A stretch of DNA of 60,525 bases, from contig CAYMBX010000001.1 of the NCBI GenBank assembly GCA_964388785.1, forward strand, positions 1 through 60,525, written 5' to 3'. The position numbers and the translations under genes were made by a program. The notes below the pieces were generated by a model. That model did not search any database. It was given only the letters and a program-made list of their open reading frames with translations, and had not been told where the DNA came from. The DNA comes from an uncultured Gammaproteobacteria bacterium. GTDB lineage: Bacteria > Patescibacteriota > Patescibacteriia > UBA9934 > GWF2-40-263. Of the stretch, positions 6,775 through 36,507 are shown one piece after another; the first letter of the stretch is position 1; every line of letters starts with the position of its first letter.

Positions 6775-6806
6775 AAAAGAAAAAAACGAACGGCAAAGCG
6801 TTCGTT
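6775..6806 (-). terminator. Rho-independent terminator of the RNA ligase gene
   Basis: AACGAACG-loop-CGTTCGTT overlapping the stop codon, followed by a T-run on the minus strand. Confidence 0.75.
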
Positions 6807-8028
6807 ATGGTTTGATCGGGAAGGTGTGATGACCCTCCGCGAAGGCGAGGAACTCGCGACAGATCCCTCGGTAGTACTGCGTGGACTGCTCCGGCGGCAC
6901 CAGTCCGTAGAGGTACTGTCGCCTTTCCTTGATGGTGCCGGACATGAACAGCACGCGCATGATCCGACCGAGCATCTCGTTGGCGCCGGTCACAATCTCG
7001 GCGTCAAGCGTGGAGAGCATCCGGTGCAGGCTTCCGCCCATGATGCGTCGCATGAGGTACGACGGCGACAGCTTCGCCGCGACCATGAGTTGAATGTACG
7101 TTGCGTACTTCACCTTCACGCGCGTGTCGCCGATGCGCAGGACAAACCCCTCCTTGTTGCGCACGCCTCGATCCTTCATGTGCTCGATGATCGCACGCAG
7201 CTCGCCCGCCGACGTTCGCCGGCGCGATGCAAGCGTGTCCAGAACGGAAGCGGGGATCTGCGGATCTGCAAACGGGATCGACAGAGCGTTCGCCATCTGC
7301 TGAATGCGAGCCGGAGAAGCGTCCTCGAGAGTGACGCGATTGAACGCGCCGGTCATCACGAACCCGTGCTGCGCTTCCGTATACTCCACATGCACTTTTG
7401 TGGACGGATGGATGATCTCGACCGTCACGGTCCAGTCCTCGGGGAACGTGCGCTTCCAGCCGTCTCGGGCATGACGCTGCAGCATGGGAGCGGCGAGCAT
7501 GGAAGTCGGGCTCTGGAACCGGCCACGCGTCGTGATGAGCAACTCATCGCGGTAGGAGAAGATGATGCCAAGATGGCCGTCGAGCTTGTCGCTTGCAAAC
7601 CATTCGAAGTCGTCCGGCTGGTCGGCGAGGAGGGCGTCGAGCTGCGCTTCGGGATGTTCTCCCAGGTTGAAGAACTTGGGAAACGGATGCGCGAGTAGAT
7701 TCCCATGGTGGTCGAAGACGATCCCTCGACACATGCGCAAGGCATTGGTCCAGCCCTGCGGGTATGCATGAAGGGTGTTGTGCGCGACCGTCGAGTAGTT
7801 GAGCATCACCAGTGGATGGATGGGATGGAAGTCCAGAGCAATGAGGGACGGTAGTGCCGGAACCCCTTGCGTGAACGGATACGCGAAACGTTCCGTCATC
7901 CAGTCGATATTTCCAGCGTCTTTGCGCCAGATTTTGTACGCGTCGCGACTGAGCGCGCCGTCATCACGAAGCCGGCGAACGAATTGGCTCAGACGCTCGA
8001 TTCCTTCTCTACGTGCCTCGATCTTCAC
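6805..8028 (-). CDS. ATP-dependent RNA ligase (T4 Rnl1-like nucleotidyltransferase)
   Basis: CRGIVFD and PFPKFFNLGE upstream of motif I SDKLDGHLG (the KxDG lysine). EGFVLRIGDTRVKVKY matches motifs IV/V. GTG start with GGAGGA Shine-Dalgarno. Confidence 0.75.
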   Translation of the reverse strand: MKIEARREGIERLSQFVRRLRDDGALSRDAYKIWRKDAGNIDWMTERFAYPFTQGVPALPSLIALDFHPIHPLVMLNYSTVAHNTLHAYPQGWTNALRMCRGIVFDHHGNLLAHPFPKFFNLGEHPEAQLDALLADQPDDFEWFASDKLDGHLGIIFSYRDELLITTRGRFQSPTSMLAAPMLQRHARDGWKRTFPEDWTVTVEIIHPSTKVHVEYTEAQHGFVMTGAFNRVTLEDASPARIQQMANALSIPFADPQIPASVLDTLASRRRTSAGELRAIIEHMKDRGVRNKEGFVLRIGDTRVKVKYATYIQLMVAAKLSPSYLMRRIMGGSLHRMLSTLDAEIVTGANEMLGRIMRVLFMSGTIKERRQYLYGLVPPEQSTQYYRGICREFLAFAEGHHTFPIKP

Positions 8029-8087: not shown

Positions 8088-8113
8088 TTTTGTCAATCAA
8101 TTGATTGACAAAA
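8088..8113. promoter_or_regulatory. Perfect 26-bp palindrome carrying back-to-back -35 boxes of divergent promoters
   Basis: TTTTGTCAATCAA|TTGATTGACAAAA. Plus strand: TTGACA(8105-8110)-N17-TATGCT(8128-8133). Minus strand: TTGACA(8096-8091)-N17-TAGGTT(8073-8068). Confidence 0.7.
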
Positions 8114-8157
8114 TGAACAATTTCGTGTATGCTTTTGCGTCGCTTGTGAATTGCGGA

Positions 8158-8194
8158 AAGCCCGAATTTGCAGCGTCCAAGCCCGAATTTGCAG
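8158..8194 (+). repeat. Tandem direct repeat, 2 x AAGCCCGAATTTGCAG (period 21) in the 5' UTR of the 8204 gene
   Basis: Identical 16-mers at 8158..8173 and 8179..8194. The second copy runs into the AGGAG Shine-Dalgarno sequence. Confidence 0.85.
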
Positions 8195-8203
8195 GAGAAA
8201 GAC

Positions 8204-8959
8204 ATGGCTCGTTTTCATGTTTCACGCCAGCCAGGGGGCGACCTGATCACACGTATTCTGGACGACTCCGACGAGCACACTGCGATCGTCGAGCTCGAGA
8301 TCTACGTCGACGATCAGACCGACCAGAAGATCCGCGTAGTCGACAAGATCGAGTGTCCGGACCACTACCAGTCCGGAGGACTCTGTTCGATCTGCGGAGG
8401 CCGGGGCTCAAGCTTCGCGACAAAGGTCAAGATCGCCGGGTTCGAAATTGTGGACGGAGATCTCACGACCGTCCCCGAAGACGGCTGGCTGCGCGGATCA
8501 CTGAAGATCGTGAACGGTCACACCGTGCCAATCGGCGAGTTCGCGATCGACACCAAGCAACGAAAGCGGTTTGGTAGTGGCAACGATGTCATCAACTGCG
8601 ATGGGACATGGCTCACGCTCGCCTACAAGGACGGGCACATCAAAGTTGTTCCTTCGGGAACCATCGGACACACCTTCGCGGCACCCACTACGTCGACGAC
8701 TCAGCGGATGCTCAACCTCGTGATCCTACGTGAGGGCGTCAACATCTTCGTCGACGGCCTCCCGTTCGCGCACGGAAGCGTTCACGGCAACGCCGAGGGT
8801 ACCGAGCTCATGCTCAACACCAGCGGCACTCGGCTGAGAGTCGACACGCACGGCAAACGCGGGATCAAGGTCGATGTCATCCGAGGCGAAACAGTGCTGT
8901 TTTCCATGAAAACCACCGCGCGTACCCTCGAGCTCGACTGGAACGTGGAGGGAAAATGA
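8204..8959 (+). CDS. Hypothetical protein with one DnaJ-type CxxCxGxG zinc knuckle (CSICGGRG)
   Basis: 251-aa ORF starting at ATG 8204 with AGGAG Shine-Dalgarno. Its stop overlaps the next ATG (ATGA). Confidence 0.6.
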   Translation: MARFHVSRQPGGDLITRILDDSDEHTAIVELEIYVDDQTDQKIRVVDKIECPDHYQSGGLCSICGGRGSSFATKVKIAGFEIVDGDLTTVPEDGWLRGSLKIVNGHTVPIGEFAIDTKQRKRFGSGNDVINCDGTWLTLAYKDGHIKVVPSGTIGHTFAAPTTSTTQRMLNLVILREGVNIFVDGLPFAHGSVHGNAEGTELMLNTSGTRLRVDTHGKRGIKVDVIRGETVLFSMKTTARTLELDWNVEGK

Positions 8960-9884
8960 GCAGCATCGATATGAGCATGATCACCGAGCACGGCCTCGTG
9001 ATCCGTGACGAGGAGCGAACACATCGCGTCCTCGTCCGCAAGGACATGTCCCACCTGCTCGGAAAAGATCCGGCGGTGACCTGCCTCAATCCGGACGCTC
9101 CGGAGAACGAGCGGGTCTACCAAAAGGTCTTCACCAAACGTCGCATCTACCTGCCCAGCGAGTACGACCTTGCGGTGACCAATCACCTCAAGGGCAGGTA
9201 CGTCCTCGTGCTCGCGATGAACGGCTACTCGTCCATCAAGCCGGAGCAGTGCGCAGCCTGGGGCATCAAGCCCGGCGCGTATGAGCATGCCTGCCGGAAC
9301 CTCCTCAAGACGGTCTGGGCAACACTCCGCAAGGAGTTCCCCGACCTGGACATCCGGCTCGTCCACGGAAGCTCCGATCTGGGCGTTGACCGAGCGATCA
9401 TCCAGGCAGCCACGGAGCTGCGCCGTGAGACGCTCGGCTTCTCCTGCCCAGAGTATGCATTCTATGTGCCGGACGACGATGACTTCCCGATGTACATTGC
9501 CGCGACCGTCGCGGAGTACTCAGATGCGTTCGTACGCTCCGCCGACGTGCTCATCGCCGCAAACGGCCGGCTGCAGGCCTACCGGATGAACACCTTGTCG
9601 TGTTCGAACACGACAAGGTGTTCATCCCGATCAACGTGCTGCGACTGATCTCGACGCTGGCAGGTCCGCCACCCAAGAATGCGGCAGGCCAAATCGAGGA
9701 TGCGGTCGCGCACTTCGAGCAGCGCCTGCACATGATCGGACAGGACCGTCCGCATGTTCCCGGAACCGTTGCTCACGACAAATGGAAGAGCGCTCTCTGG
9801 GAGCTCGGCGAAGTACTCATCGATGTTTGCCGACATCAACTCGACCCCGAGATCGGTCTCGAGGTTCCCCCTCCGTCCCGCTGA
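8956..9884 (+). pseudogene. Rossmann/SLOG-like protein gene interrupted by a 44-bp palindrome (reads as ORFs 8956..9648 and 9600..9884)
   Basis: Removing exactly 9584..9627 joins frame 1 to frame 3 seamlessly (...ANGRLQAY-P-INVLRLIS...) and gives one ORF of about 294 aa. VHGSSDLGVDRAIIQAA...ADVLIAANG resembles SLOG/YpsA/DprA-type folds (weak). Confidence 0.5.
9584..9627. repeat. Perfect 44-bp palindrome (GGATGAACACCTTGTCGTGTTC|GAACACGACAAGGTGTTCATCC)
   Basis: Checked base by base: 22+22 nt with no mismatch, centred on TTCGAA, inside coding sequence. Confidence 0.95.
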
Positions 9885-9897
9885 CGGAGGGTTTTTT
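9869..9897 (+). terminator. Rho-independent terminator
   Basis: CCCTCCGTC-ccgct-GACGGAGGG followed by TTTTTT. Confidence 0.85.
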
Positions 9898-9916
9898 ATT
9901 AGGTGCAAAAAAACGC

Positions 9917-9956
9917 TTGACAGCATCATTACTTCGTGTGTATACTTACACTAAGT
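9917..9956 (+). promoter_or_regulatory. nrtR promoter (TTGACA-N18-TATACT) with palindromic operator site A, ACTTCGTGT-N8-ACACTAAGT (9931..9956)
   Basis: The -10 box at 9941..9946 lies in the operator spacer. The ATG at 9957 is only 10 nt after the -10 box, so the mRNA is nearly leaderless. Confidence 0.6.
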
Positions 9957-10625
9957 ATGAAACACCACCCTTCTGCCCAAAATGTAAAAGTTGCTGTGGA
10001 CGCGATCATTTTTACCATCAAAAATGATGCACTTCATGTCCTTCTCATCCAAATGAAAAAAACGCCGTTTACAGGACAATGGGCAGTGCCCGGTGGTCTC
10101 ATTGAAGAAAAAGAAACGACGCATGAAGCCGCAACACGTATTTTGCATACCCAAACCGGCGTCAGAGATGTTTACCTGGAGCAGCTCATGACGTTTGACG
10201 ACGTCGAACGGGATCCGGCGGGACGCGTCTTGAGCGTCTCCTACTTCGCCCTTCTCCCAAATGCCGATGCCAAGATCAAAACGACGGAAAAATATTCCGA
10301 TGTCCGTTGGTGGCCGATCAAGAAACTGCCGACACTTGCCTACGATCACCAACCAATGATTCGTCTCGCACGTAAACGCCTTGAATCAAAAATTCAATAT
10401 ACCAACATCGTCTGGAGCTTGCTTCCACGCGAATTCACGCTCACACAACTTCAACGCGTGTACGAAATCATTCTCGATAAACCGCTCGACAAACGCAATT
10501 TTCGAAAACGCCTCTTGGCCCTGGATTTCATCAAACCCACCGGAAAAAAAGAACAAGGAAGTGCGTATCGACCGGCTGCCCTTTATCAATTCAAACAGCA
10601 CACACTTGAATACGTAGAGATTTAA
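9957..10625 (+). CDS. nrtR: NrtR-type regulator (Nudix-like ADP-ribose-sensing domain plus C-terminal winged helix)
   Basis: Degenerate Nudix box GQWAVPGGLIEEKETTHEAATRILHTQTGV (REL changed to RIL, EE lost). C-terminal FTLTQLQRVYEIILDKPLDKRNFRKRL wHTH. Sits directly upstream of NAD genes. Confidence 0.75.
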   Translation: MKHHPSAQNVKVAVDAIIFTIKNDALHVLLIQMKKTPFTGQWAVPGGLIEEKETTHEAATRILHTQTGVRDVYLEQLMTFDDVERDPAGRVLSVSYFALLPNADAKIKTTEKYSDVRWWPIKKLPTLAYDHQPMIRLARKRLESKIQYTNIVWSLLPREFTLTQLQRVYEIILDKPLDKRNFRKRLLALDFIKPTGKKEQGSAYRPAALYQFKQHTLEYVEI

Positions 10626-10626
10626 G

Positions 10627-10650
10627 AAAAAGGGACAAAATCCCTTTTCT
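10627..10650 (+). terminator. Rho-independent terminator of nrtR
   Basis: AAAAAGGGA-caaaa-TCCCTTTT. Confidence 0.7.
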
Positions 10651-10651
10651 C

Positions 10652-10686
10652 TTGACGTATCAGTTAGTGTGTAATATACACTATAT
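10652..10686 (+). promoter_or_regulatory. NAD-island promoter (TTGACG-N17-TATACA) with operator site B, AGTTAGTGT-N7-ACACTATAT (10662..10686)
   Basis: Same half-site and the same -10-in-spacer geometry as sites A and C. About 158-nt leader to the nadD-like ATG. Confidence 0.6.
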
Positions 10687-10844
10687 AAAATCTTACACAA
10701 TTCATTGACAGAACAACGATTTTCTTGTAACGTCTTCCCCTTTCCTGAATCAGTTAATTAGAAATTTGCGCTTGGACTTCTCGAGCATAAATTTCTCACC
10801 TTCAAAGAGTTGGAGGTGAACCGCACTTCAAAACCGAGGACGTC

Positions 10845-11450
10845 ATGAAAAAGGTGTTTGTGCTTGGCGGGAGTTTCAACCCGCCCGCTCTCCACCACGA
10901 AACAATCGTCCGTGAGCTCATCGCAGTGCTCGATTCGAAGGACGAGCTTCTGGTAATCCCCTGCGGCGATCGGCCGGACAAACGGACCACTGGTTCGGTT
11001 GCGCCGATGCATCGCGCCAACCTAGCACGTCTCGCCTTCGGCAAGTTCGATCGAGTCATGCTCGACTTAAGCGATCTCGACCACGACGAGTTCACCCGCA
11101 CCGCCGATCTCAACGATCGGCTTCGCGCGCAGTATCAAGATTATGAGATCATTCTGGTTGTTGGTCAGGATCTGATCGAAGGCGGGGCCACGGGAGCATC
11201 CGAAATCCATCGCGTTTGGCACAGAGACGAAGAGCTGTGGAACGACGCATCGTTCCTTGTGCTCACGCGCGGTGACAAAGTGCCGGATCGAGATGATCTT
11301 CCGCCACACAGCCACGTCCTACAGATCAGCGCGCCCGGCTCGAGCAGCGAGGTCCGATCACTTATTCGTGAAAACCGCGACGTTCGGTCGCTTATCAGCC
11401 CGAAAGTGCACGAATACATCGTGCATCACCGGCTTTACATGGAGAGATGA
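10845..11450 (+). CDS. nadD: Nicotinate/nicotinamide-mononucleotide adenylyltransferase
   Basis: GGSFNPPALHHETIV (GxFxPxHxxH) and C-terminal SAPGSSSEVRSLI (ISST-like). GAGGA Shine-Dalgarno. Confidence 0.8.
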   Translation: MKKVFVLGGSFNPPALHHETIVRELIAVLDSKDELLVIPCGDRPDKRTTGSVAPMHRANLARLAFGKFDRVMLDLSDLDHDEFTRTADLNDRLRAQYQDYEIILVVGQDLIEGGATGASEIHRVWHRDEELWNDASFLVLTRGDKVPDRDDLPPHSHVLQISAPGSSSEVRSLIRENRDVRSLISPKVHEYIVHHRLYMER

Positions 11451-12580
11451 TGGTTACGCGAGAAAGTCGATTTCAAGGTTCGCTCATGGGCGTACGCATC
11501 GGCGACGGCCTCGGTATGCCGTGGGAATCGCTCACCGCCGAGCAGATTCGCGAGCGCACCGATGGGAAGGGCGTGCATACGTACCACTCCCCACAGCAAC
11601 GCAGCGATGCGCCAGCATGGGCTCTGCAGCTCGGGATTCTCAACCCGGGTGACTCAACCGATGACTGGCAGCTCACGCGCGCGACGGCACAAAGTCTCAT
11701 TCGCTGTGGCCAGCTCGATCTCGCCGATCTGGCACGCACCTTCGTCGACGAACACGCGATCTGCCGTCTCGGTTGGGGCGGAACCACCGAGTGGGGCATC
11801 GCGCAGATCGAAGCGTGGTTCAAGACAAACGGAATCGAAGGACGTTCGCCCGGAGAGTTCCCTCCAAATCCGGAAAGCGAGAACGAACGTTTCGGCACCG
11901 GCAACGGAGTCGCGATGCGCATCGCGCCGATCGGCCTGCTGGCCAGCCACGCGTTTAGCGAAGATGGCCGGATCGATGAGGGTGCGCTGATCAGCTTCAT
12001 GGAGTCTGTCTGGGGAGTGGGAGGTCTCACACATCCAGACCCGCGGGCAACGGTCGGCGCATTCGCGATCGCGAGCTTCATTGCGCGACTCACTGCGCGC
12101 GAAGGCCGGCCGCTCGCACAGCACCATCTCCTCAAGATGTTCGACAGTGTGCTCTATGAGGTCACACGCATGGAGCGCGAGTTCGCGTCGACGATCGGCT
12201 GGACGAGAAATCGTGAGCCGTTCTCAGCGCGGATGAACTGGATTCGTCCGCTCATTCTGGCGAATGCGTCCGCAACGCAGATCCGCGTGAAGTTCGGAAC
12301 CTCGAGCTACACACTCGAGTCCGCTGCGTTCTCGATCGCGACCTTTCTGCGCCACCCCACGGACTTCCGCGCCGCCCTGCGGGAGGCCGTCGAGGCCGGC
12401 GGGGATACGGACACCAACGCCGCGATCGTAGGAAGTCTCGTGGGCGCGAACGTTGGACTCGAAGGAATCCCTGAGGAGTGGATGGGGCGCGGGGACTTCC
12501 TTGTGGCGGAGACGCTGGGATCCGATCTCTGGAACCTGGTCCTGGACATCCTCACGTCACCGTACTCCAACGCTTCTTGA
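11447..12580 (+). CDS. ADP-ribosylglycohydrolase family protein (DraG/ARH-like)
   Basis: N-terminal FQGSLMGVRIGDGLGMPWE and C-terminal GGDTDTNAAIVGSLVGA, which are typical ARH metal-site motifs. Start overlaps the nadD stop. Confidence 0.8.
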   Translation: MMVTRESRFQGSLMGVRIGDGLGMPWESLTAEQIRERTDGKGVHTYHSPQQRSDAPAWALQLGILNPGDSTDDWQLTRATAQSLIRCGQLDLADLARTFVDEHAICRLGWGGTTEWGIAQIEAWFKTNGIEGRSPGEFPPNPESENERFGTGNGVAMRIAPIGLLASHAFSEDGRIDEGALISFMESVWGVGGLTHPDPRATVGAFAIASFIARLTAREGRPLAQHHLLKMFDSVLYEVTRMEREFASTIGWTRNREPFSARMNWIRPLILANASATQIRVKFGTSSYTLESAAFSIATFLRHPTDFRAALREAVEAGGDTDTNAAIVGSLVGANVGLEGIPEEWMGRGDFLVAETLGSDLWNLVLDILTSPYSNAS

Positions 12581-12591
12581 TCTCCTTCTTC

Positions 12592-12640
12592 GCGGACCGG
12601 CTGTGCCTCGGTCGGTCCGCACACCCTTTTTCTTCTTTGT
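12592..12640 (+). terminator. Probable terminator hairpin (GCGGACCG...CGGTCCGC followed by a T-run)
   Basis: Read directly. The T-run is 6 nt after the stem, so this is weaker than the other terminators. Confidence 0.5.
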
Positions 12641-12663
12641 CATTTCGAACGAACCCCCTCTCC

Positions 12664-12742
12664 CTTGTCATCCTGAGGGAGCGCAGCGACCGAAGGATCT
12701 CAAAGTCTGTCGGGATCCTTCGCTGACGCTCAGGATGACAGG
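12664..12742. repeat. Long REP-like inverted repeat (CTTGTCATCCTGAG...CGAAGGATC / GATCCTTCG...CTCAGGATGACAGG)
   Basis: Nested arms at 12664-12677/12729-12742 and 12691-12699/12714-12722. Resembles the GTCATCCTGAG...GAAGGATC palindromic elements common in environmental genomes. Confidence 0.75.
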
Positions 12743-12826
12743 AAAGAAAGCACTCAAAGTGATCAAAAGTTCGCCTGAAATGACAGAGTGGAAACCCCAC
12801 TCTTCGCACCTTCCAAGGAGCAAACC

Positions 12827-14116
12827 ATGCGTCCACACGCAGAATTGATCGACGAAATCCTCGACGGCCCGGTCGTCGGCAACATGCTCGACGACGACTT
12901 CTACACCTACTCGATGGGTCAGGCAATCGTCTTGAACCGCCCGCAGGTCGAAGTCGACTTTCGTCTCACCAATCGTTCGCGAGGCGTCGTGCTCACCCAC
13001 GAGGTCAGTCCGGACGAGCTCGCACAAGAGCTCGACCGGCTCAAGGTTCGACGTTTCACTCGGACGGAACTGCACTATGTGCTCGGAACCAACGAGTACG
13101 GTGAGCGCATGTTCCGATCGGAGTACATCGACCACTTGCGCGAGCTTGCACTGCCCGATTTTCATCTGGGAGTTCGGGATGATGGCCAGTTCGATCTGCG
13201 CTTTCCGGGCGTTTGGTCTCGGGCCATGCACTGGGAAGTTCCGGCCCTCGCGGCGATCAACGGGCTGCGCATGCGCAATGCTCTGCGGCGGATGACACCC
13301 TTCCAGCGTGATGAGGTCATCGCGCGCGGTGTTGCACGGTTGGGCGAGAAAATCCGCGTCATCCGTGAACTTCCGGGTCTCACGTTCACGGACTTCGGAA
13401 CACGGCGCCGCTTCCATCGTGCCTGGCAGCGCTACATCGACAAGACGCTTGCGCAGGAACTCCCCGGACAATTCCTGGGAACCTCGAACGTCGAGGCAGC
13501 CATGGACTTCGGGCTTCTGCCCATGGGCACCAACGCCCACCAGATGTTCATGGTGATCGCCGCGCTCATGAGCGAAACGGATGAAAGTCTGCTGCGCTCA
13601 CACAACCAGGCCCTGCGCGAGTGGTGGCAGCTCTACGGATGGGGTCTCTCAATCGCGCTCACCGACACCTTCGGCACGGACTTCTTCTTCCGTGACTTCA
13701 CGCCCGAACAGGCGCGCGCATGGAAGGGTCTGCGCCAGGACTCCGGGGATCCGATCGTGTTCGGACACAAGGCACTCGACTACTACCATCGCCGTGGCAT
13801 CGATCCGAAAGAGAAGCTTCTCATCTTCTCGGACGGACTCGATCTCGACATGATCGTCCGGCTCTACAACGAGTTCAAGAACGAGATCAAGGTGAGCTTC
13901 GGATGGGGAACGTTGCTCACCAACGACCTCGGACTCTCACCGATCTCGATCGTCATCAAGGCCATGCGCGCAAGGCGTGATGCGGGAAGCGTGTGGATCG
14001 ACACCTGCAAGCTCTCCGACAACATCGCCAAGGCGATGGGTACACGTGAGACGATCGACCGTTACGCACGTGTGTTCGGCTACGACTCGCACTTCGAGGA
14101 GACACCGATCGTCTGA
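12827..14116 (+). CDS. pncB: Nicotinate phosphoribosyltransferase
   Basis: N-terminal MLDDDFYTYSMGQA (the LDTDxYKxTM pattern), about 430 aa. AAGGAG Shine-Dalgarno 6 nt before ATG 12827; the ORF-track GTG at 12788 was rejected. Confidence 0.85.
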   Translation: MRPHAELIDEILDGPVVGNMLDDDFYTYSMGQAIVLNRPQVEVDFRLTNRSRGVVLTHEVSPDELAQELDRLKVRRFTRTELHYVLGTNEYGERMFRSEYIDHLRELALPDFHLGVRDDGQFDLRFPGVWSRAMHWEVPALAAINGLRMRNALRRMTPFQRDEVIARGVARLGEKIRVIRELPGLTFTDFGTRRRFHRAWQRYIDKTLAQELPGQFLGTSNVEAAMDFGLLPMGTNAHQMFMVIAALMSETDESLLRSHNQALREWWQLYGWGLSIALTDTFGTDFFFRDFTPEQARAWKGLRQDSGDPIVFGHKALDYYHRRGIDPKEKLLIFSDGLDLDMIVRLYNEFKNEIKVSFGWGTLLTNDLGLSPISIVIKAMRARRDAGSVWIDTCKLSDNIAKAMGTRETIDRYARVFGYDSHFEETPIV

Positions 14117-14222: not shown

Positions 14223-16271
14223 ATGACCGTCAAGGTACAAACCGTTCGCGGACGTTCAACGTCGCATGGGTTCGCTCGCGTCGCCGCCGCCTCCTTTTGG
14301 ACGCGCCCGGCTGCGATTGAGCAGAATTTGCAGCGTCACCTCGAAGCCGCTCGCGAGGCGGACGCCGAGCGCGTTCAACTGCTCGTCTTCCCTGAACTCG
14401 GCCTCACCGGCTACGCTTGTCGCGATCTCTTCCGGGACGACCACCTGCGCGTGCGTGCGCTCGAAGCGCTTCGGACGTTCTGCGACGAAACCCAGGACAT
14501 GGGAACCGTGTTCGTAGTCGGTCTGCCGCTCGCACTCAACGGTCTGTACAACGTGGCAGCTGTCGTCATTCACGGAGAGGTGCTGGCACTCATCCCCAAA
14601 TCCTTCCTCGCGGCTCGCAGTGAGTGGCAGGAAGACGAATGGTTCGTGCCGGCGTCGCACCTGCAGACCGAGTCGGTCATCCTGCCCTGGCAGAAAGAAG
14701 CCGTTCCGATCGGAACGGACATTCTGATCGAGGTGATGGACGAGAACGATGAAGAGCAGGTGTTCGTTCTGGGTGTCGAAATCTGTGCGGACGGCTGGCA
14801 GGCCGGCTCGCCCGGTGATCGGCTGGCACTCAACGGCGCGACCGTCATCGCCAACCTCTCGGCATCCAACTGGGTGCTCGGGAAGGACAAATGGCGTGAG
14901 GTCGTCTTCCCGGCCAGCTCGGGTCAGCAGAAGGCCGTCTACATCTACTGCACGATGGCTGGCGACTCGACCGCGAGCGTCACTTGGGACGGCCACTGCT
15001 TCATCGCCGAGGACGGCAACATCCTCGCGCGTTCCAAGCGTTGGCTCACGCCCACGCAGAGCGACCTTAGCGTCGCAGACGTGGACATCGCGCGCCTTCT
15101 GCGCGATCGAATGGTCGACGGCGAGTGGGCACAGGCCGAACATCTCCACCAATCGCCGCACCGAAAGATCACCGCCTTCGTGCGCACCTGGCCCGCGGAC
15201 GTCAACGATTTCCGCCGCCCGCTCACGCGCATGCCGTTTGTCCCGAAGGACGCAGCGGTGATGCACGAGGTCGCAACCGAACTGTTCCAGGGTCTCGCCC
15301 AAGGACTGATCGGCCGACTCTGGACGATGAAAAATGGTCAGCCGATCGATACCTACCTTGGCCTCTCCGGCGGGTCGGACTCTACGCTCGTCTATCTCAT
15401 CGCGTGCTACGTCTACGATCGGCTCGGCTGGGACCGCAAGCACTTGCACGCGGTGCGCCTGCCCGGGCCCGCCTCGAGCACGCGCACACAGCGCAACTCA
15501 CGCCTGCTCGCGCAGGCGATGGGGACGAGTCTGCACACCGTCAACATCACGAAGCTCGCCACGCGCGCGCTGCGTGACGTGGGACACGAGCCGTGCTGGC
15601 AGTGCCTCCAGTGCGAGAACGCACAGGCACGCGCCCGCACGTTCGTGCTCATGACCTACGGATTCGTTCTGGGCACCGGCGACATGACCGAAAAGGTGCT
15701 TGGATGGGCCACCTATAACGGCGACCAGATGTCGATGTACGACGTCATCGCCGGAGTGCCCAAGACGCTCGTGCGCTACCTCATCGCCGCCTACGTCGAA
15801 CACATGACCAAGGACATGGTGGTGAGACGCACGCTTCGAAGCATCCTCGCCGAGGTGATCTCGCCCGAGCTCGTCAAAGTCAAGCCCGGCGAACCGATCC
15901 AGTCTTCCGAGGCGAAGATCGGTCCGTACGATCTCAACGACTTCTTCCTCTACCATGTGATCCGCACCGGCGCCACGCCCGCGCGGATCGCCTTCCTCGC
16001 ACAGATCGCGTTCTCGAGGAAGGAACGTGAGACGGACCTCATCTACAACCTGCCAACCATCCTCACGTGGTTGAAGAGCTTCTACAGCCGGTTCAACCCG
16101 GCCCAGTACAAGCGAAATGCCGGTGCGGATAGCGTGCTTATTGGATCGGTGGGAATCGGCCCACACGACAAGCTGCGTTTGCCCTCCGACGGCGATGTGT
16201 TGATCTATCTGCGTGAGGTTGAGGCCATGCTGACGGCTGTCAGCTCATGCACCGAGGCGGCTGCAGCGTAA
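14223..16271 (+). CDS. nadE: Glutamine-dependent NAD+ synthetase (CN-hydrolase domain plus NAD synthetase domain)
   Basis: N-terminal nitrilase-like LLVFPELGLTGY...EICAD. C-terminal LGLSGGSDST PP-loop. 682 aa. GAGGT Shine-Dalgarno. Confidence 0.9.
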   Translation: MTVKVQTVRGRSTSHGFARVAAASFWTRPAAIEQNLQRHLEAAREADAERVQLLVFPELGLTGYACRDLFRDDHLRVRALEALRTFCDETQDMGTVFVVGLPLALNGLYNVAAVVIHGEVLALIPKSFLAARSEWQEDEWFVPASHLQTESVILPWQKEAVPIGTDILIEVMDENDEEQVFVLGVEICADGWQAGSPGDRLALNGATVIANLSASNWVLGKDKWREVVFPASSGQQKAVYIYCTMAGDSTASVTWDGHCFIAEDGNILARSKRWLTPTQSDLSVADVDIARLLRDRMVDGEWAQAEHLHQSPHRKITAFVRTWPADVNDFRRPLTRMPFVPKDAAVMHEVATELFQGLAQGLIGRLWTMKNGQPIDTYLGLSGGSDSTLVYLIACYVYDRLGWDRKHLHAVRLPGPASSTRTQRNSRLLAQAMGTSLHTVNITKLATRALRDVGHEPCWQCLQCENAQARARTFVLMTYGFVLGTGDMTEKVLGWATYNGDQMSMYDVIAGVPKTLVRYLIAAYVEHMTKDMVVRRTLRSILAEVISPELVKVKPGEPIQSSEAKIGPYDLNDFFLYHVIRTGATPARIAFLAQIAFSRKERETDLIYNLPTILTWLKSFYSRFNPAQYKRNAGADSVLIGSVGIGPHDKLRLPSDGDVLIYLREVEAMLTAVSSCTEAAAA

Positions 16272-16347: not shown

Positions 16348-16380
16348 TTGACGAATTTCAAAAATTCGTGCATAATTCGT
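16348..16380 (+). promoter_or_regulatory. Internal promoter TTGACG-N17-CATAAT with inverted repeat ACGAATTT-ca-AAATTCGT (16351..16369) and a third AATTCGT at 16374
   Basis: Read directly, in a low-GC spacer between nadE and the Nudix pair. Confidence 0.55.
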
Positions 16381-16412
16381 CCTCGCGATTAACGTTGCGA
16401 GCAACTCGGAGA

Positions 16413-17210
16413 ATGGAAATGTCACATTCCATCATGATCAACGGGCGAACAGTGCCCGTGACCGGCCAATACGCACCGGAGGCGGTCGACAGCCCACTCC
16501 TCAAGGACTGGGCGACTTCGCTCGATCCCCGCATCGTCGTGAACAAGGTGAAGGTGCTCGCACTCGTCCTGTTTGGAAAGCTGCCAAAACTCCGCGTCGG
16601 GTTCATGATGATCGATGCGGAGATGACGCTCGATGGCAAGTCCATTCCCGGCGTGGCGTTCCTGCGCGGCGATGCGGTCGCCATCTTCGTCGAAGTCAAC
16701 TGCGAGGGTGAGCGCTACGCACTCATGACCGTTCAACCACGCGGGCCGGTCGGCGAACTACTCGTCGAAATCCCGGCCGGCATGATGGACGGCAGTGGTC
16801 ACTTCCTCGGCAAGGCCGCGGACGAGCTACGCGAAGAAACGGACATCGAGATCGACCCCGCGCAACTCATCGATCTGTGTGCGCTTGCGCAAGGGTCGCC
16901 GGCGCCGCGTGGCGTCTACACGTCCCCAGGCGGCAGCGACGAGGCCATTCACTACTACTGGTACCGCGTCGTCCTCAGCCGCGAGGAGCTCAAGGAACTC
17001 GAAGGCAAGGCTACCGGTCTGCTCGAGGAGGGCGAACAGATCACGCTCAAGGTCGTCCCCTTCGGCGAGCTCGCCCGATACCGCGACGGCAAGCTCATGA
17101 CCGCACTCGGTCTGCTCGCCGTCATGGAACTCGCGGAGACGTACAGGATCGTCGATCGCGCCGTTGTGAACGCAGATCTCAACAAGGCGGCAATCGAAGC
17201 CGCTGCCTAG
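16413..17210 (+). CDS. Nudix hydrolase, ADP-sugar/ADP-ribose pyrophosphatase-like
   Basis: PAGMMDGSGHFLGKAADELREETDIEI Nudix box and a long N-terminal dimerisation-type domain as in ADPRases. Start chosen at ATG 16413 after GGAGA. Confidence 0.7.
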   Translation: MEMSHSIMINGRTVPVTGQYAPEAVDSPLLKDWATSLDPRIVVNKVKVLALVLFGKLPKLRVGFMMIDAEMTLDGKSIPGVAFLRGDAVAIFVEVNCEGERYALMTVQPRGPVGELLVEIPAGMMDGSGHFLGKAADELREETDIEIDPAQLIDLCALAQGSPAPRGVYTSPGGSDEAIHYYWYRVVLSREELKELEGKATGLLEEGEQITLKVVPFGELARYRDGKLMTALGLLAVMELAETYRIVDRAVVNADLNKAAIEAAA

Positions 17211-36220: not shown

Positions 36221-36254
36221 CGTTAAAACACCAGACAAGCTGGTGTTTTAACGT
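36220..36254 (-). terminator. Perfect 15-bp hairpin abutting the tRNA-Glu 3' CCA (terminator or processing signal)
   Basis: ACGTTAAAACACCAG-acaag-CTGGTGTTTTAACGT. Confidence 0.6.
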
Positions 36255-36328
36255 GGTGACCCCACGGGGAGTCGAACCCCGCTTTACAGGATGAAAACCT
36301 GTCGTCCTAACCGATAGACGATGGGGCC
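36254..36328 (-). tRNA. tRNA-Glu (anticodon UUC), CCA encoded
   Basis: Reverse complement GGCCCCATCGTCTATCGGTTAGGACGACAGGTTTTCATCCTGTAAAGCGGGGTTCGACTCCCCGTGGGGTCACCA. Cloverleaf with anticodon loop TTTTCAT and T-arm GGGGTTCGACTCCCC. Confidence 0.9.
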
Positions 36329-36371
36329 ATATTTTATTATGGCGTGAACTGTGTACGGTTAGGACGACTGT

Positions 36372-36507
36372 GTCCTAACCGATGCGTGAGTGAGCGAGTG
36401 GAGAGACCAAGCTGAAAGCTTGGGCTATCCCGAGCGAGCGAGCGCAATATGGCCGCTCGGCTTGCCATCCGGCCATATAGACGATGGGGCCATATTTTAT
36501 TATGGCG
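36372..36507 (-). repeat. Disrupted second copy of the tRNA-Glu 5' segment plus its upstream region, split by a 95-bp insertion
   Basis: The 41-mer at 36304..36344 (GTCCTAACCGAT|AGACGATGGGGCCATATTTTATTATGGCG) recurs as 36372..36383 plus 36479..36507. An inverted D-arm fragment lies at 36358..36370. Confidence 0.8.

What the first reader, a model, noticed from the sequence alone, without database searches (positions are those of the whole stretch)
9584..9627. Perfect 44-bp palindrome splits an ORF, and excising exactly those 44 bp restores one reading frame
GGATGAACACCTTGTCGTGTTC|GAACACGACAAGGTGTTCATCC has no mismatch. ORF 8956..9648 (frame 1) terminates shortly after it, and ORF 9600..9884 (frame 3) is open right through it. 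Deleting 9584..9627 joins codon TAC(9580-82) to C(9583)+CG(9628-29) and continues in the downstream frame. That gives one protein of about 294 aa ending at the strong terminator at 9869..9897. This is what a small palindromic insertion (MITE-like or hairpin element) into a gene would look like. Alternatively it could be a regulated recoding or cruciform site. The in-frame restoration has a one-in-three chance expectation, so it is suggestive rather than proof.
Basis: seen in the sequence. Interest (0 to 1): 0.65.

Follow-up and report, generated by a model that had tools for sequence, protein, structure and literature searches.

The report
Template-switch palindrome frameshifts a conserved gene
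The 44-bp perfect palindrome is not inserted DNA: one arm of an imperfect inverted repeat already in the gene was rewritten as an exact mirror of the other arm, a known copying error, which lost one base and broke a conserved gene of unknown function.

Summary
Positions 9584..9627 are a perfect 44-bp palindrome, unique in the window. It lies where ORF 8956..9648 (frame 1) and ORF 9600..9884 (frame 3) meet.

The insertion reading fails. Sixty-eight orthologs are single genes of about 290-305 aa, or up to about 394 aa with N-terminal extensions. The 22 ortholog DNA segments examined carry 45 nt (15 codons, RMDIxAVFEHDKVFI) where the window has 44 nt.

- The right arm is native coding sequence (EHDKVFI).
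- The left arm differs from orthologs at three otherwise invariant nucleotides: G to A in an invariant Asp codon, loss of the T of the Ile codon, and C to T in the Ala codon. It also differs in one variable codon.
- Every difference makes the left arm the exact reverse complement of the right arm.

This is the signature of a quasi-palindrome template-switch mutation. The net change is -1 nt, so the gene is frameshifted. Deleting all 44 bp restores the frame only because 44 = 45 - 1, and it would remove a helix end and a core beta-strand.

A second, k=31 assembly (Logan, run SRR5011273) breaks at exactly the position a perfect 44-bp palindrome predicts. Whether the event arose in the cell or during library preparation cannot be settled without reads.

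The broken gene is an uncharacterised SLOG-fold family that sits in NAD-salvage gene clusters in five Patescibacteria-type ortholog loci and in the window; four of those loci also encode NrtR.

The parts
9584..9627 (.). Perfect 44-bp palindrome with no spacer, centred on TTC|GAA between 9605 and 9606
   Evidence: I2: 22-nt arms, 100% complementary, 0 nt between them. DNA hairpin -28.3 kcal/mol, z = -6.8.
9606..9627 (+). Right arm: unchanged native coding sequence, GAA CAC GAC AAG GTG TTC ATC C, encoding E-H-D-K-V-F-I plus the first base of Pro in frame 3. This arm served as the template.
   Evidence: The same peptide, EHDKVFIP, is found in ortholog L006. Nearly identical DNA is found in L001, L004, L005 and L006.
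9584..9605 (+). Left arm: 22 nt standing where orthologs have 23 nt (GG ATG GAC ATC nnn GCC GTG TTC). The smallest rewritten tract is 9589..9598. It is flanked by complementarity that existed before the event: 9584..9588 pairs with 9623..9627, and 9599..9605 pairs with 9606..9612.
   Evidence: Position 9589 is A where 22 of 22 orthologs have G. The T of the Ile codon is missing between 9592 and 9593 where 22 of 22 orthologs have T. Position 9598 is T where 21 of 22 orthologs have C. The variable codon reads CTT. Every change matches the complement of the right arm.
8956..9648 (+). 5' fragment of the broken gene (frame 1, 230 aa). It is homologous to orthologs as far as ..ANGRLQAYRM, ending at 9588. 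From 9589 to 9648 it is an out-of-frame tail ending at a TGA stop.
   Evidence: (P0001).
9600..9884 (+). 3' fragment of the same gene (frame 3). It is homologous to orthologs from VFEHDKVFIPINVLRL.. to the natural stop at 9882..9884. It is as conserved as the 5' part.
   Evidence: Identity of the C-terminal part to orthologs is 0.68-0.72 against 0.72-0.77 for the N-terminal part, which is the same ratio as among intact orthologs.
9869..9897 (+). Intrinsic-terminator-like hairpin plus T-run that ends the gene
   Evidence: 9 pairs, 7 of them G-C, 5-nt loop, followed by TTTTTTATTA.

Best explanation
The ancestral gene encoded ..ANGRLQAY-RMDIxAVFEHDKVFI-PINVLRL.. in one frame. Its DNA already held a strong quasi-palindrome, GGATGGACATCnnnGCCGTGTTC|GAACACGACAAGGTGTTCATCC. 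About 17-19 of 22 positions paired, one T was bulged, and a 14-bp core (CGTGTTCGAACACG) was perfect.

During DNA synthesis the 3' end of a nascent strand that had just passed the centre left its template. It paired through the perfect core either with the nascent strand itself (fold-back) or with the other strand at the fork. It then copied the right arm and returned to its proper template at the outer GGATG/CATCC homology.

That single event rewrote at least 9589..9598 as the exact complement of 9613..9622. In one step it produced G to A, loss of one T, C to T and the change of the variable codon. A quasi-palindrome became a perfect 44-bp palindrome.

Because 23 nt became 22 nt, the gene is frameshifted by -1. 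Translation from 8956 now ends at 9648, and the last 85 or so conserved residues are out of frame. The gene is therefore most likely a very recent pseudogene in the sequenced population.

Shown here: the palindrome, the single-gene orthologs, the 45 versus 44 nt difference, the direction of every change, and the second assembly. Inferred: the exact ancestral sequence, that it was one event, that it happened in vivo, and that function was lost.
For: 1. Orthologs are single genes with 15 codons at the site, and their DNA was read directly.
2. The right arm equals native coding sequence. The left arm departs from orthologs at three nucleotide columns that are G in 22/22, T in 22/22 and C in 21/22 orthologs. 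Each departure creates complementarity.
3. In the 90-nt comparison, the flanking codons differ from L001 only at third codon positions.
4. The changes would damage the protein one by one: an Asp invariant in 68 sequences, a frameshift, and an Ala conserved in at least 90%. Stepwise accumulation under selection is therefore unlikely.
5. A pre-existing quasi-palindrome is plausible. Close orthologs pair 13-17 of 22 positions, the reconstructed ancestor 17-19 of 22, and the window 22 of 22. The ancestral-like RNA hairpin is already -20.7 kcal/mol against -36.5 now.
6. The part of the gene downstream of the frameshift shows no decay, which points to a recent event.
7. The palindrome is not specific to one assembler. 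Logan contig SRR5011273_22825 equals window 9598..12695 with one mismatch. It starts with the derived T at 9598, which is exactly the first 31-mer not wholly inside 9584..9627. Logan contigs hold each 31-mer only once and discard 31-mers seen only once (PMC12424806). In a simulation the only mirrored 31-mers in the window are 9584..9597, and an ancestral-like sequence has none.
8. The mechanism is established: quasi-palindromes become 'perfect or more perfect' by template switching and give frameshifts (PMC7202029, which cites Ripley 1982). Clustered substitutions plus indels from short template switches are also documented (PMC5453318, PMC8794818, PMC8604942).
Against: - No reads were available, so allele frequency and read-level support are unknown.
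- The closest intact ortholog is only about 70% identical in protein. The immediate ancestor is therefore inferred from conservation and was not observed. One event cannot be told apart from two, for example first a 36-bp palindrome in an intact gene and then loss of a G.
- In the Logan collection the organism was found in one run only, and that run may be the same reads the window was assembled from.
- The library method is unknown. A polymerase template switch in vitro would leave the same footprint.
- The left-hand Logan contig ends at 9393, not at the predicted 9613, so the left junction was not confirmed independently.
Confidence: 0.72

Rival explanations
1. Technical artefact. The same template-switch chemistry happened in vitro, through strand-displacement amplification, PCR or end-repair of enzymatically fragmented DNA at a quasi-palindrome. 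The artefactual molecules then came to dominate the consensus, and the real genome carries the intact 45-nt sequence.
For: In the Logan collection the organism was found in only one sequencing run, and no second independent library could be checked. From general knowledge, not tested here: quasi-palindromes are known hot spots for fold-back artefacts in amplified or enzymatically fragmented libraries. The downstream part of the gene is undecayed, which is also what an intact real gene would show.
Against: - A simple fold-back chimera gives a long inverted duplication. This sequence returns to the colinear template after 22 nt, and both native flanks are joined to the palindrome.
- De Bruijn assemblers cannot create the left junction, because the native and chimeric paths share only about 5 nt there (inference).
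- The 31-mers of the palindromic allele each occurred at least twice in the Logan run, and the contig break fits a perfect palindrome rather than a bubble between two alleles.
Confidence: 0.17
2. The palindrome is a selected functional feature. It could be a programmed recoding site, a regulatory RNA hairpin or cruciform, or a deliberate split of the gene into two polypeptides that still work together.
For: The 3' fragment keeps an open frame of 94 codons from a GTG at 9600, and all conserved residues are retained. The hairpin is very stable.
Against: - None of the 22 ortholog DNA segments has the palindrome or a frameshift.
- By inspection there is no slippery heptamer or homopolymer before the hairpin, and no Shine-Dalgarno sequence before GTG 9600, which lies inside the stem.
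- The rewritten codons replace an invariant Asp and a conserved Ala.
- The break falls inside a helix and a core strand of a single compact domain.
Confidence: 0.05
3. A small palindromic mobile element (MITE, REP or hairpin element) of 44 bp inserted into the gene.
For: Removing exactly 44 bp leaves an open frame.
Against: - Orthologs have 45 nt at the site, so there is no extra DNA.
- Half of the 'element' encodes the conserved EHDKVFI, and 17-19 of 22 left-arm positions are also ancestral.
- There are no other copies in the window and none in the JGI metagenome contigs. There is no palindromic copy in 185,579 species genomes; the single hit is one arm inside an unrelated gene.
- There is no target-site duplication.
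Confidence: 0.01
4. Independent point mutations in a gene that was already dead happened to perfect the palindrome.
For: The ancestor is only inferred, so a longer history cannot be formally excluded.
Against: At least three changes, and up to five, fall within 10 nt. All of them point toward complementarity. Meanwhile the remaining 290 or so codons show no stop, no other frameshift and normal conservation.
Confidence: 0.03

Closest known systems
Quasi-palindrome-associated template-switch mutations (Ripley 1982 model; E. coli lacZ QP5/QP6 reporters)
   Same: An imperfect inverted repeat becomes perfect. One arm is copied from the other by a polymerase that switches template and then returns. 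The results include frameshifts and clusters of base changes (PMC7202029).
   Different: The known cases are 18-bp-class repeats in laboratory reporters, observed as ancestor and mutant pairs. This is a 44-bp product in the natural genome of an uncultivated bacterium. The ancestor is inferred from orthologs about 70% identical, and the strand and fork direction are unknown.
Short template-switch mutations found by comparative genomics (four-point model of Loytynoja and Goldman; template switches that create perfect hairpins; inverted-repeat arm homogenisation in yeast coding genes)
   Same: A local cluster of substitutions plus an indel is explained by one reverse-complement copy of a neighbouring tract. 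The event lengthens a perfect stem (PMC5453318, PMC8794818, PMC8604942).
   Different: Those studies use closely related genomes and a formal model. Here the inference rests on invariant ortholog columns. The event here disrupts a conserved protein instead of creating an RNA stem or a tolerated multi-nucleotide change.
Palindromic insertion elements (MITEs, REP/BIME, IS200/IS605-type hairpins)
   Same: A short perfect hairpin-forming sequence lies inside a gene region.
   Different: There is no added DNA, no other copies and no target duplication, and the arms are the gene's own codons.
SLOG superfamily proteins (LOG phosphoribohydrolases, PpnN, molybdenum-cofactor carrier protein, TRPM N-terminal ADPR-binding domain). 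This entry concerns the gene that was broken, not the palindrome.
   Same: A predicted ortholog structure (pLDDT 94) matches 6y01, 5zbk, 5zbl, 3sbx, 6gfl and TRPM2/8. Foldseek E-values are 5e-5 to 1e-3, and target-normalised TM-scores are 0.5-0.59 for the small LOG and cofactor-carrier chains. The gene lies next to NAD and ADP-ribose genes.
   Different: There is no Pfam, NCBIfam, PADLOC or PDB sequence-profile match. Identity is 12-18%. The protein has extra N- and C-terminal parts, and its function is untested.

Membership tests
Quasi-palindrome template-switch mutation | The ancestral sequence already holds an imperfect inverted repeat at the site | tested here: met
   Close orthologs pair 13-17 of 22 positions. 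The reconstruction (window right arm plus ortholog-consensus left arm) pairs 17-19 of 22, with a 14-bp perfect core. The ancestor is inferred, not observed.
Quasi-palindrome template-switch mutation | Every derived difference increases complementarity between the arms, and the product is a perfect or more perfect repeat | tested here: met
   G to A at 9589, loss of T between 9592 and 9593, the variable codon changed to CTT, and C to T at 9598 all match the complement of 9613..9622. The result is 22 of 22 pairs.
Quasi-palindrome template-switch mutation | A cluster of substitutions and an indel lies in one short tract, bounded by pre-existing complementarity that allows the switch and the return | tested here: met
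   All changes lie in 9589..9598. The bounds are 5 bp (9584..9588 with 9623..9627) and 7 bp (9599..9605 with 9606..9612). In the alignment the flanking codons differ from L001 only at third codon positions.
Quasi-palindrome template-switch mutation | A direct ancestor and descendant pair in the same lineage shows a single event | not testable with these tools
   The nearest intact relative is about 70% identical in protein. No near-identical strain was found.
Quasi-palindrome template-switch mutation | The change is present in the organism's DNA and not only in library molecules | tested here: inconclusive
   A second, k=31 assembly of run SRR5011273 breaks exactly where a perfect palindrome predicts and carries the derived T at 9598. 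It may be built from the same reads, and reads could not be inspected.
MITE or palindromic insertion element | Extra DNA is present relative to uninterrupted orthologs | tested here: not met
   The window has 44 nt where orthologs have 45 nt of conserved coding sequence.
MITE or palindromic insertion element | Multiple copies exist in the genome or in related genomes | tested here: not met
   The arm occurs only at this site in the window, even with up to 3 mismatches. It gave 0 hits in the JGI metagenome contigs. It gave one single-arm hit in an unrelated gene in the genome collection.
MITE or palindromic insertion element | A target-site duplication flanks the element | tested here: not met
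   The flanks are ..CCTACC | palindrome | CGATCA.., with no direct repeat beyond a single C.
Programmed ribosomal frameshift site | A slippery sequence lies upstream of the structure, and the frameshift is conserved in orthologs | tested here: not met
   The upstream sequence CTGCAGGCCTACCGGATG has no X_XXY_YYZ motif or homopolymer. All 22 ortholog DNA segments are in one frame.
SLOG superfamily (the interrupted gene) | A Rossmann-like LOG/DprA-type fold | tested here: met
   AlphaFold2 model of ortholog P0002: pLDDT 94.1, pTM 0.91. The Foldseek top hits are molybdenum-cofactor carrier, LOG, PpnN and TRPM N-terminal domains.
SLOG superfamily (the interrupted gene) | Sequence-profile membership in a described SLOG family | tested here: not met
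   No Pfam hit at E <= 0.1. No NCBIfam or PADLOC hit. The only PDB profile hits are spurious matches to TPR repeats.
SLOG superfamily (the interrupted gene) | Nucleotide binding or N-glycosidase activity | not testable with these tools
   Only the gene neighbourhood (NrtR, PncA, NMNAT/NAD kinase, NAPRTase, NadE, ADP-ribosylglycohydrolase) suggests a substrate related to NAD.

The most novel reading that the evidence does not exclude
The perfect palindrome is not just damage but a reversible or selected state. It could be an on/off switch that works by template switching at a conserved quasi-palindrome in a SLOG-fold NAD-cluster gene. Alternatively the gene could be functionally split, with its two halves still assembling, in an uncultivated Patescibacteria-like bacterium with a reduced genome. 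The undecayed 3' fragment and the GTG at 9600 do not exclude this.
Probability: 0.04. Interest if true: 0.6.

Novelty: new member of a known kind. Interest (0 to 1): 0.3.

Why it matters
This is an unusually clean natural example of a textbook mutational mechanism. One template switch turned a quasi-palindrome inside a conserved codon block into a 44-bp perfect palindrome and knocked out a gene.

It is also a practical warning. A perfect hairpin in a gene whose removal 'restores the frame' can be the gene's own sequence rewritten in place. Such sites should not be annotated as insertions or mobile elements without looking at orthologs.

The gene that was hit may be the more useful lead. It belongs to an unannotated SLOG-fold family that lies in NAD-salvage clusters in five Patescibacteria-type ortholog loci and in the window (NrtR in four of those loci and in the window), so it is a candidate missing enzyme or ligand sensor of NAD/ADP-ribose metabolism.

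Tried and rejected
- **Insertion or MITE reading.** Rejected by the ortholog protein and DNA alignments and by the lack of other copies.
- **Copies of the arm elsewhere.** JGI metagenome contigs gave 0 hits. The GTDB species genomes gave 1 hit (L009), which is a single arm coding EHDKVFIP inside an unrelated gene with no palindrome, so it is chance.
- **Near-identical strains carrying the intact allele.** None found. The exact 230-aa product is not on record. The neighbouring NMNAT, the upstream ORF and the 94-aa fragment are each found in only one Logan run.
- **Middle Logan contig.** The left-hand Logan contig ends at 9393 for an unknown reason.
- **Run accession in the literature.** No papers mention SRR5011273, so the sample and library type remain unknown.
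- **Programmed frameshift.** No slippery site and no conservation.
- **Sequence-family assignment of the gene.** Pfam, NCBIfam, PADLOC and a PDB profile search all gave nothing. Only fold comparison gave a result.
- **Upstream 263-aa ORF against the 277-aa unknown ORFs next to the orthologs.** No similarity in any fetched locus.
- **Half-sites of the 26-bp palindrome at 8088..8113 in ortholog loci.** Found only in the Logan contig of the same organism. My first pattern had the wrong spacing.
- **Strand of the switch from GC skew.** Considered and dropped. The skew is weak and conflicts with gene orientation, and the intra- and inter-molecular models predict opposite strands.

Full report
**1. 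The observation**

Positions 9584..9627 read GGATGAACACCTTGTCGTGTTC|GAACACGACAAGGTGTTCATCC and equal their own reverse complement. The symmetry stops at 9583 and 9628, which are both C. It is the longest perfect palindrome in the window; the next are 26 bp at 8088..8113 and 18 bp at 14701. With up to 3 mismatches, the 22-nt arm occurs nowhere else in the window.

- ORF 8956..9648 (frame 1, 230 aa) ends 21 nt after the palindrome.
- ORF 9600..9884 (frame 3) starts inside it, and frame 3 is open from 9483.
- Deleting the 44 bp gives an in-frame 294-aa product.
- The terminator-like hairpin at 9869..9891 plus T-run is real and contains the stop codon.

**2. What orthologs show**

A search with the fused protein found 68 homologs beyond the window's own fragment. 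Most are about 290-305 aa, with some up to about 394 aa, and the closest cover 98% of the query at about 70% identity. None has an annotation or a Pfam domain. The few that carry names come from Candidatus Uhrbacteria, Parcubacteria and Patescibacteria, and one comes from an archaeon. The two ORFs are therefore one broken gene.

The alignment shows that the fusion is not the native protein. Between ..ANGRLQAY and PINVLRL.. every ortholog has 15 more residues, with consensus RMDIxAVFEHDKVFI. The Asp is invariant in all 68 sequences, and the Ala and Lys are conserved in at least 90%.

The window encodes parts of this segment in two frames. Frame 1 reads AYRM(N..). Frame 3 reads (DEHLV)VFEHDKVFIPINVL.

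**3. DNA level**

I fetched ortholog DNA: L001-L008 by exact protein look-up and L010-L032 by a metagenome scan. I then compared codons.

- Orthologs have 45 nt between the Tyr codon and the Pro codon. The window has 44 nt, at 9583..9626.
- The right arm, GAA CAC GAC AAG GTG TTC ATC C, is the native coding sequence. L006 encodes the same EHDKVFIP, and L001, L004, L005 and L006 differ from it by only a few bases.
- The left arm stands where orthologs read GG ATG GAC ATC nnn GCC GTG TTC.

The left arm differs as follows:

- A at 9589, where 22 of 22 orthologs have the G of the Asp codon.
- The T of the Ile codon, present in 22 of 22 orthologs, is missing between 9592 and 9593.
- T at 9598, where 21 of 22 orthologs have the C of the Ala codon.
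- The variable codon reads CTT.

Each of these changes produces the base complementary to the right arm. In the 90-nt comparison, the flanking codons differ from L001 only at third codon positions. The 44 bp are therefore not inserted. They are the gene's own 45 nt with one arm rewritten and one base lost.

**4. Why deleting 44 bp 'restores' the frame**

A segment of 15 codons became 44 nt. Cutting the whole segment removes the -1 defect, but it also removes 15 conserved residues. In a high-confidence model of ortholog P0002 (pLDDT 94.1), these residues form the end of helix 204-216 and core strand 220-223.

**5. Mechanism**

The pattern has three features. There is a pre-existing imperfect inverted repeat. 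There is a cluster of substitutions plus an indel in a tract of about 10 nt, all toward perfect symmetry. And the tract is bounded by complementarity that already existed: 5 bp outside and a 14-bp perfect core inside.

This is the signature of a quasi-palindrome template-switch mutation. In that mechanism a polymerase briefly uses the nascent or opposite strand as template, and the repeat becomes 'perfect or more perfect', often with a frameshift (PMC7202029, citing Ripley 1982). The same process is known from comparative genomics as short template-switch mutation, which creates perfect stems and multi-nucleotide changes in coding genes (PMC5453318, PMC8794818, PMC8604942).

- Orthologs pair 9-17 of 22 positions at this site, the reconstructed ancestor 17-19 of 22, and the window 22 of 22.
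- The RNA hairpin energy goes from about -20.7 to -36.5 kcal/mol.
- Taken singly, the changes destroy an invariant Asp, shift the frame and replace a conserved Ala. One event is therefore much more likely than stepwise drift.
- The part of the gene after the frameshift is as conserved as the part before it. C-terminal to N-terminal identity ratios are 0.90-1.03, the same as among intact orthologs. The event is recent.

I could not determine the strand or the fork direction.

**6. Is it real DNA?**

No reads were available, but two points bear on the question.

First, the sequence returns to the colinear template after 22 nt and keeps both native flanks. A simple fold-back chimera or a graph artefact would not do this, because the native and chimeric paths share only about 5 nt at the left junction (inference).

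Second, there is a separate assembly. Logan contig SRR5011273_22825 equals window 9598..12695 with a single mismatch, at 12205. It begins TCGTGTTCGAACAC.., so it carries the derived T at 9598. Logan contigs are built at k=31, contain each 31-mer once by construction, and drop 31-mers seen only once (PMC12424806).

In a simulation, the only mirrored canonical 31-mers in the whole window start at 9584..9597, so the first usable 31-mer on the right side starts at 9598. An ancestral-like sequence has no duplicated 31-mers at all. The contig start therefore matches the prediction for a perfect palindrome spanning exactly 9584..9627.

There are limits to this check:

- That run may be the same reads the window came from.
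- The left-hand Logan contig ends early, at 9393.
- No other Logan run holds this organism.
- The run accession appears in no searchable paper.

An in vitro template switch during library amplification therefore remains a live rival. I put it at about 0.17.

**7. Rejected readings**

- **Mobile palindromic insertion.** There is no extra DNA, no other copies (the one genome hit, L009, is a single arm in an unrelated gene) and no target duplication.
- **Programmed frameshift or functional hairpin.** There is no slippery site and no conservation in 22 ortholog DNA segments, and the rewritten codons remove invariant residues.
- **Independent point mutations.** At least three directional changes within 10 nt in an otherwise intact gene make this very unlikely.

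**8. The gene that was hit**

The family has no Pfam, NCBIfam or PADLOC match, and no sequence-level PDB match. The predicted fold matches the SLOG superfamily: molybdenum-cofactor carrier 6y01, LOG 5zbk/5zbl/3sbx, nucleosidase PpnN 6gfl, and TRPM2/8 N-terminal domains. Foldseek E-values are 5e-5 to 1e-3 at 12-18% identity.

In all five ortholog loci examined, the gene lies among NAD-salvage genes. Four loci encode the NrtR regulator nearby, and between them the loci carry PncA-type isochorismatase, NMNAT and/or NAD kinase, NAPRTase, PRPP synthase, NadE and ADP-ribosylglycohydrolase.

The window has the same company:

| Gene | Coordinates |
|---|---|
| NrtR | 9936..10625 |
| NMNAT | 10845..11450 |
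| ADP-ribosylglycohydrolase | 11447..12580 |
| NAPRTase | 12788..14116 |
| NadE | 14223..16271 |
| Nudix protein | 16368..17210 |

The rewritten segment follows the invariant G-R motif and includes the invariant Asp, so it may touch the ligand site. That last point is inference only.

**9. Verdict**

The insertion interpretation is replaced by in-place perfection of a quasi-palindrome through template switching, which frameshifted a conserved gene. The mechanism is well known, so novelty is low: this is a new natural instance. Interest is modest at 0.3. The uncharacterised SLOG-fold family in NAD-salvage clusters is the more promising lead.

Noticed in passing
window 8956..9884; loci L001 5001-5942, L004 575-1492, L005 1549-2523, L006 2178-3203, L007 5001-5900: The interrupted gene belongs to an unannotated family of mostly 290-305 aa. 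It has no Pfam, NCBIfam or PADLOC hit, but its confidently predicted fold is SLOG-type (LOG, PpnN, molybdenum-cofactor carrier, TRPM N-terminal domain). In all five Patescibacteria-type ortholog loci it lies among NAD-salvage genes (PncA, NMNAT/NAD kinase, NAPRTase, PRPP synthase, NadE, ADP-ribosylglycohydrolase), and four of the five also encode NrtR. It is a candidate new enzyme or sensor of NAD/ADP-ribose metabolism.
   Followed up: partly
window 8088..8113: A 26-bp perfect palindrome, TTTTGTCAATCAATTGATTGACAAAA, is unique in the window. It overlaps the -35 TTGACA of a promoter-like site at 8105..8133, between the divergent RNA-ligase gene (6805..8028, minus strand) and the operon that holds the broken gene. 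It looks like an operator. Its half-sites were not found in the ortholog loci.
   Followed up: partly
window 8158..8194: An exact 16-nt direct repeat, AAGCCCGAATTTGCAG, occurs twice with 21-nt spacing. It lies just upstream of the likely start (ATG 8204, preceded by GGAG) of the ORF before the broken gene.
   Followed up: no
window 8204..8959: The upstream ORF (251 aa from ATG 8204) overlaps the start of the broken gene by ATGA (8956..8959), which suggests translational coupling. It has no Pfam, NCBIfam or PADLOC hit and no relative in any of the fetched ortholog loci.
   Followed up: partly
window 36314..36344 and 36477..36507: An exact 31-nt direct repeat occurs 163 nt apart. The first copy overlaps the 5' end of tRNA-Glu(TTC), which lies at 36254..36328 on the minus strand. 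It could be a partial tRNA or promoter duplication, or the scar of an integration.
   Followed up: no
window 6805..8028 (minus strand): A T4 Rnl1-type RNA ligase (PF09511, E = 1.8e-14) is encoded divergently, right next to the NAD-salvage cluster.
   Followed up: no
window 9393 and 12205; loci L034, L033: The Logan contigs of run SRR5011273 match the window exactly apart from one T/G difference at 12205. The left contig ends at 9393 for no reason visible in the sequence. This may reflect strain variation or low coverage in that run.
   Followed up: no
L009 4521..4542 (Defluviitaleaceae MAG, CAZOVK010000054.1): This is the only exact match to the 22-nt arm in 185,579 species genomes. It is a single arm inside an unrelated coding region that also reads EHDKVFIP, with no palindrome there. 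I take it to be chance.
   Followed up: yes
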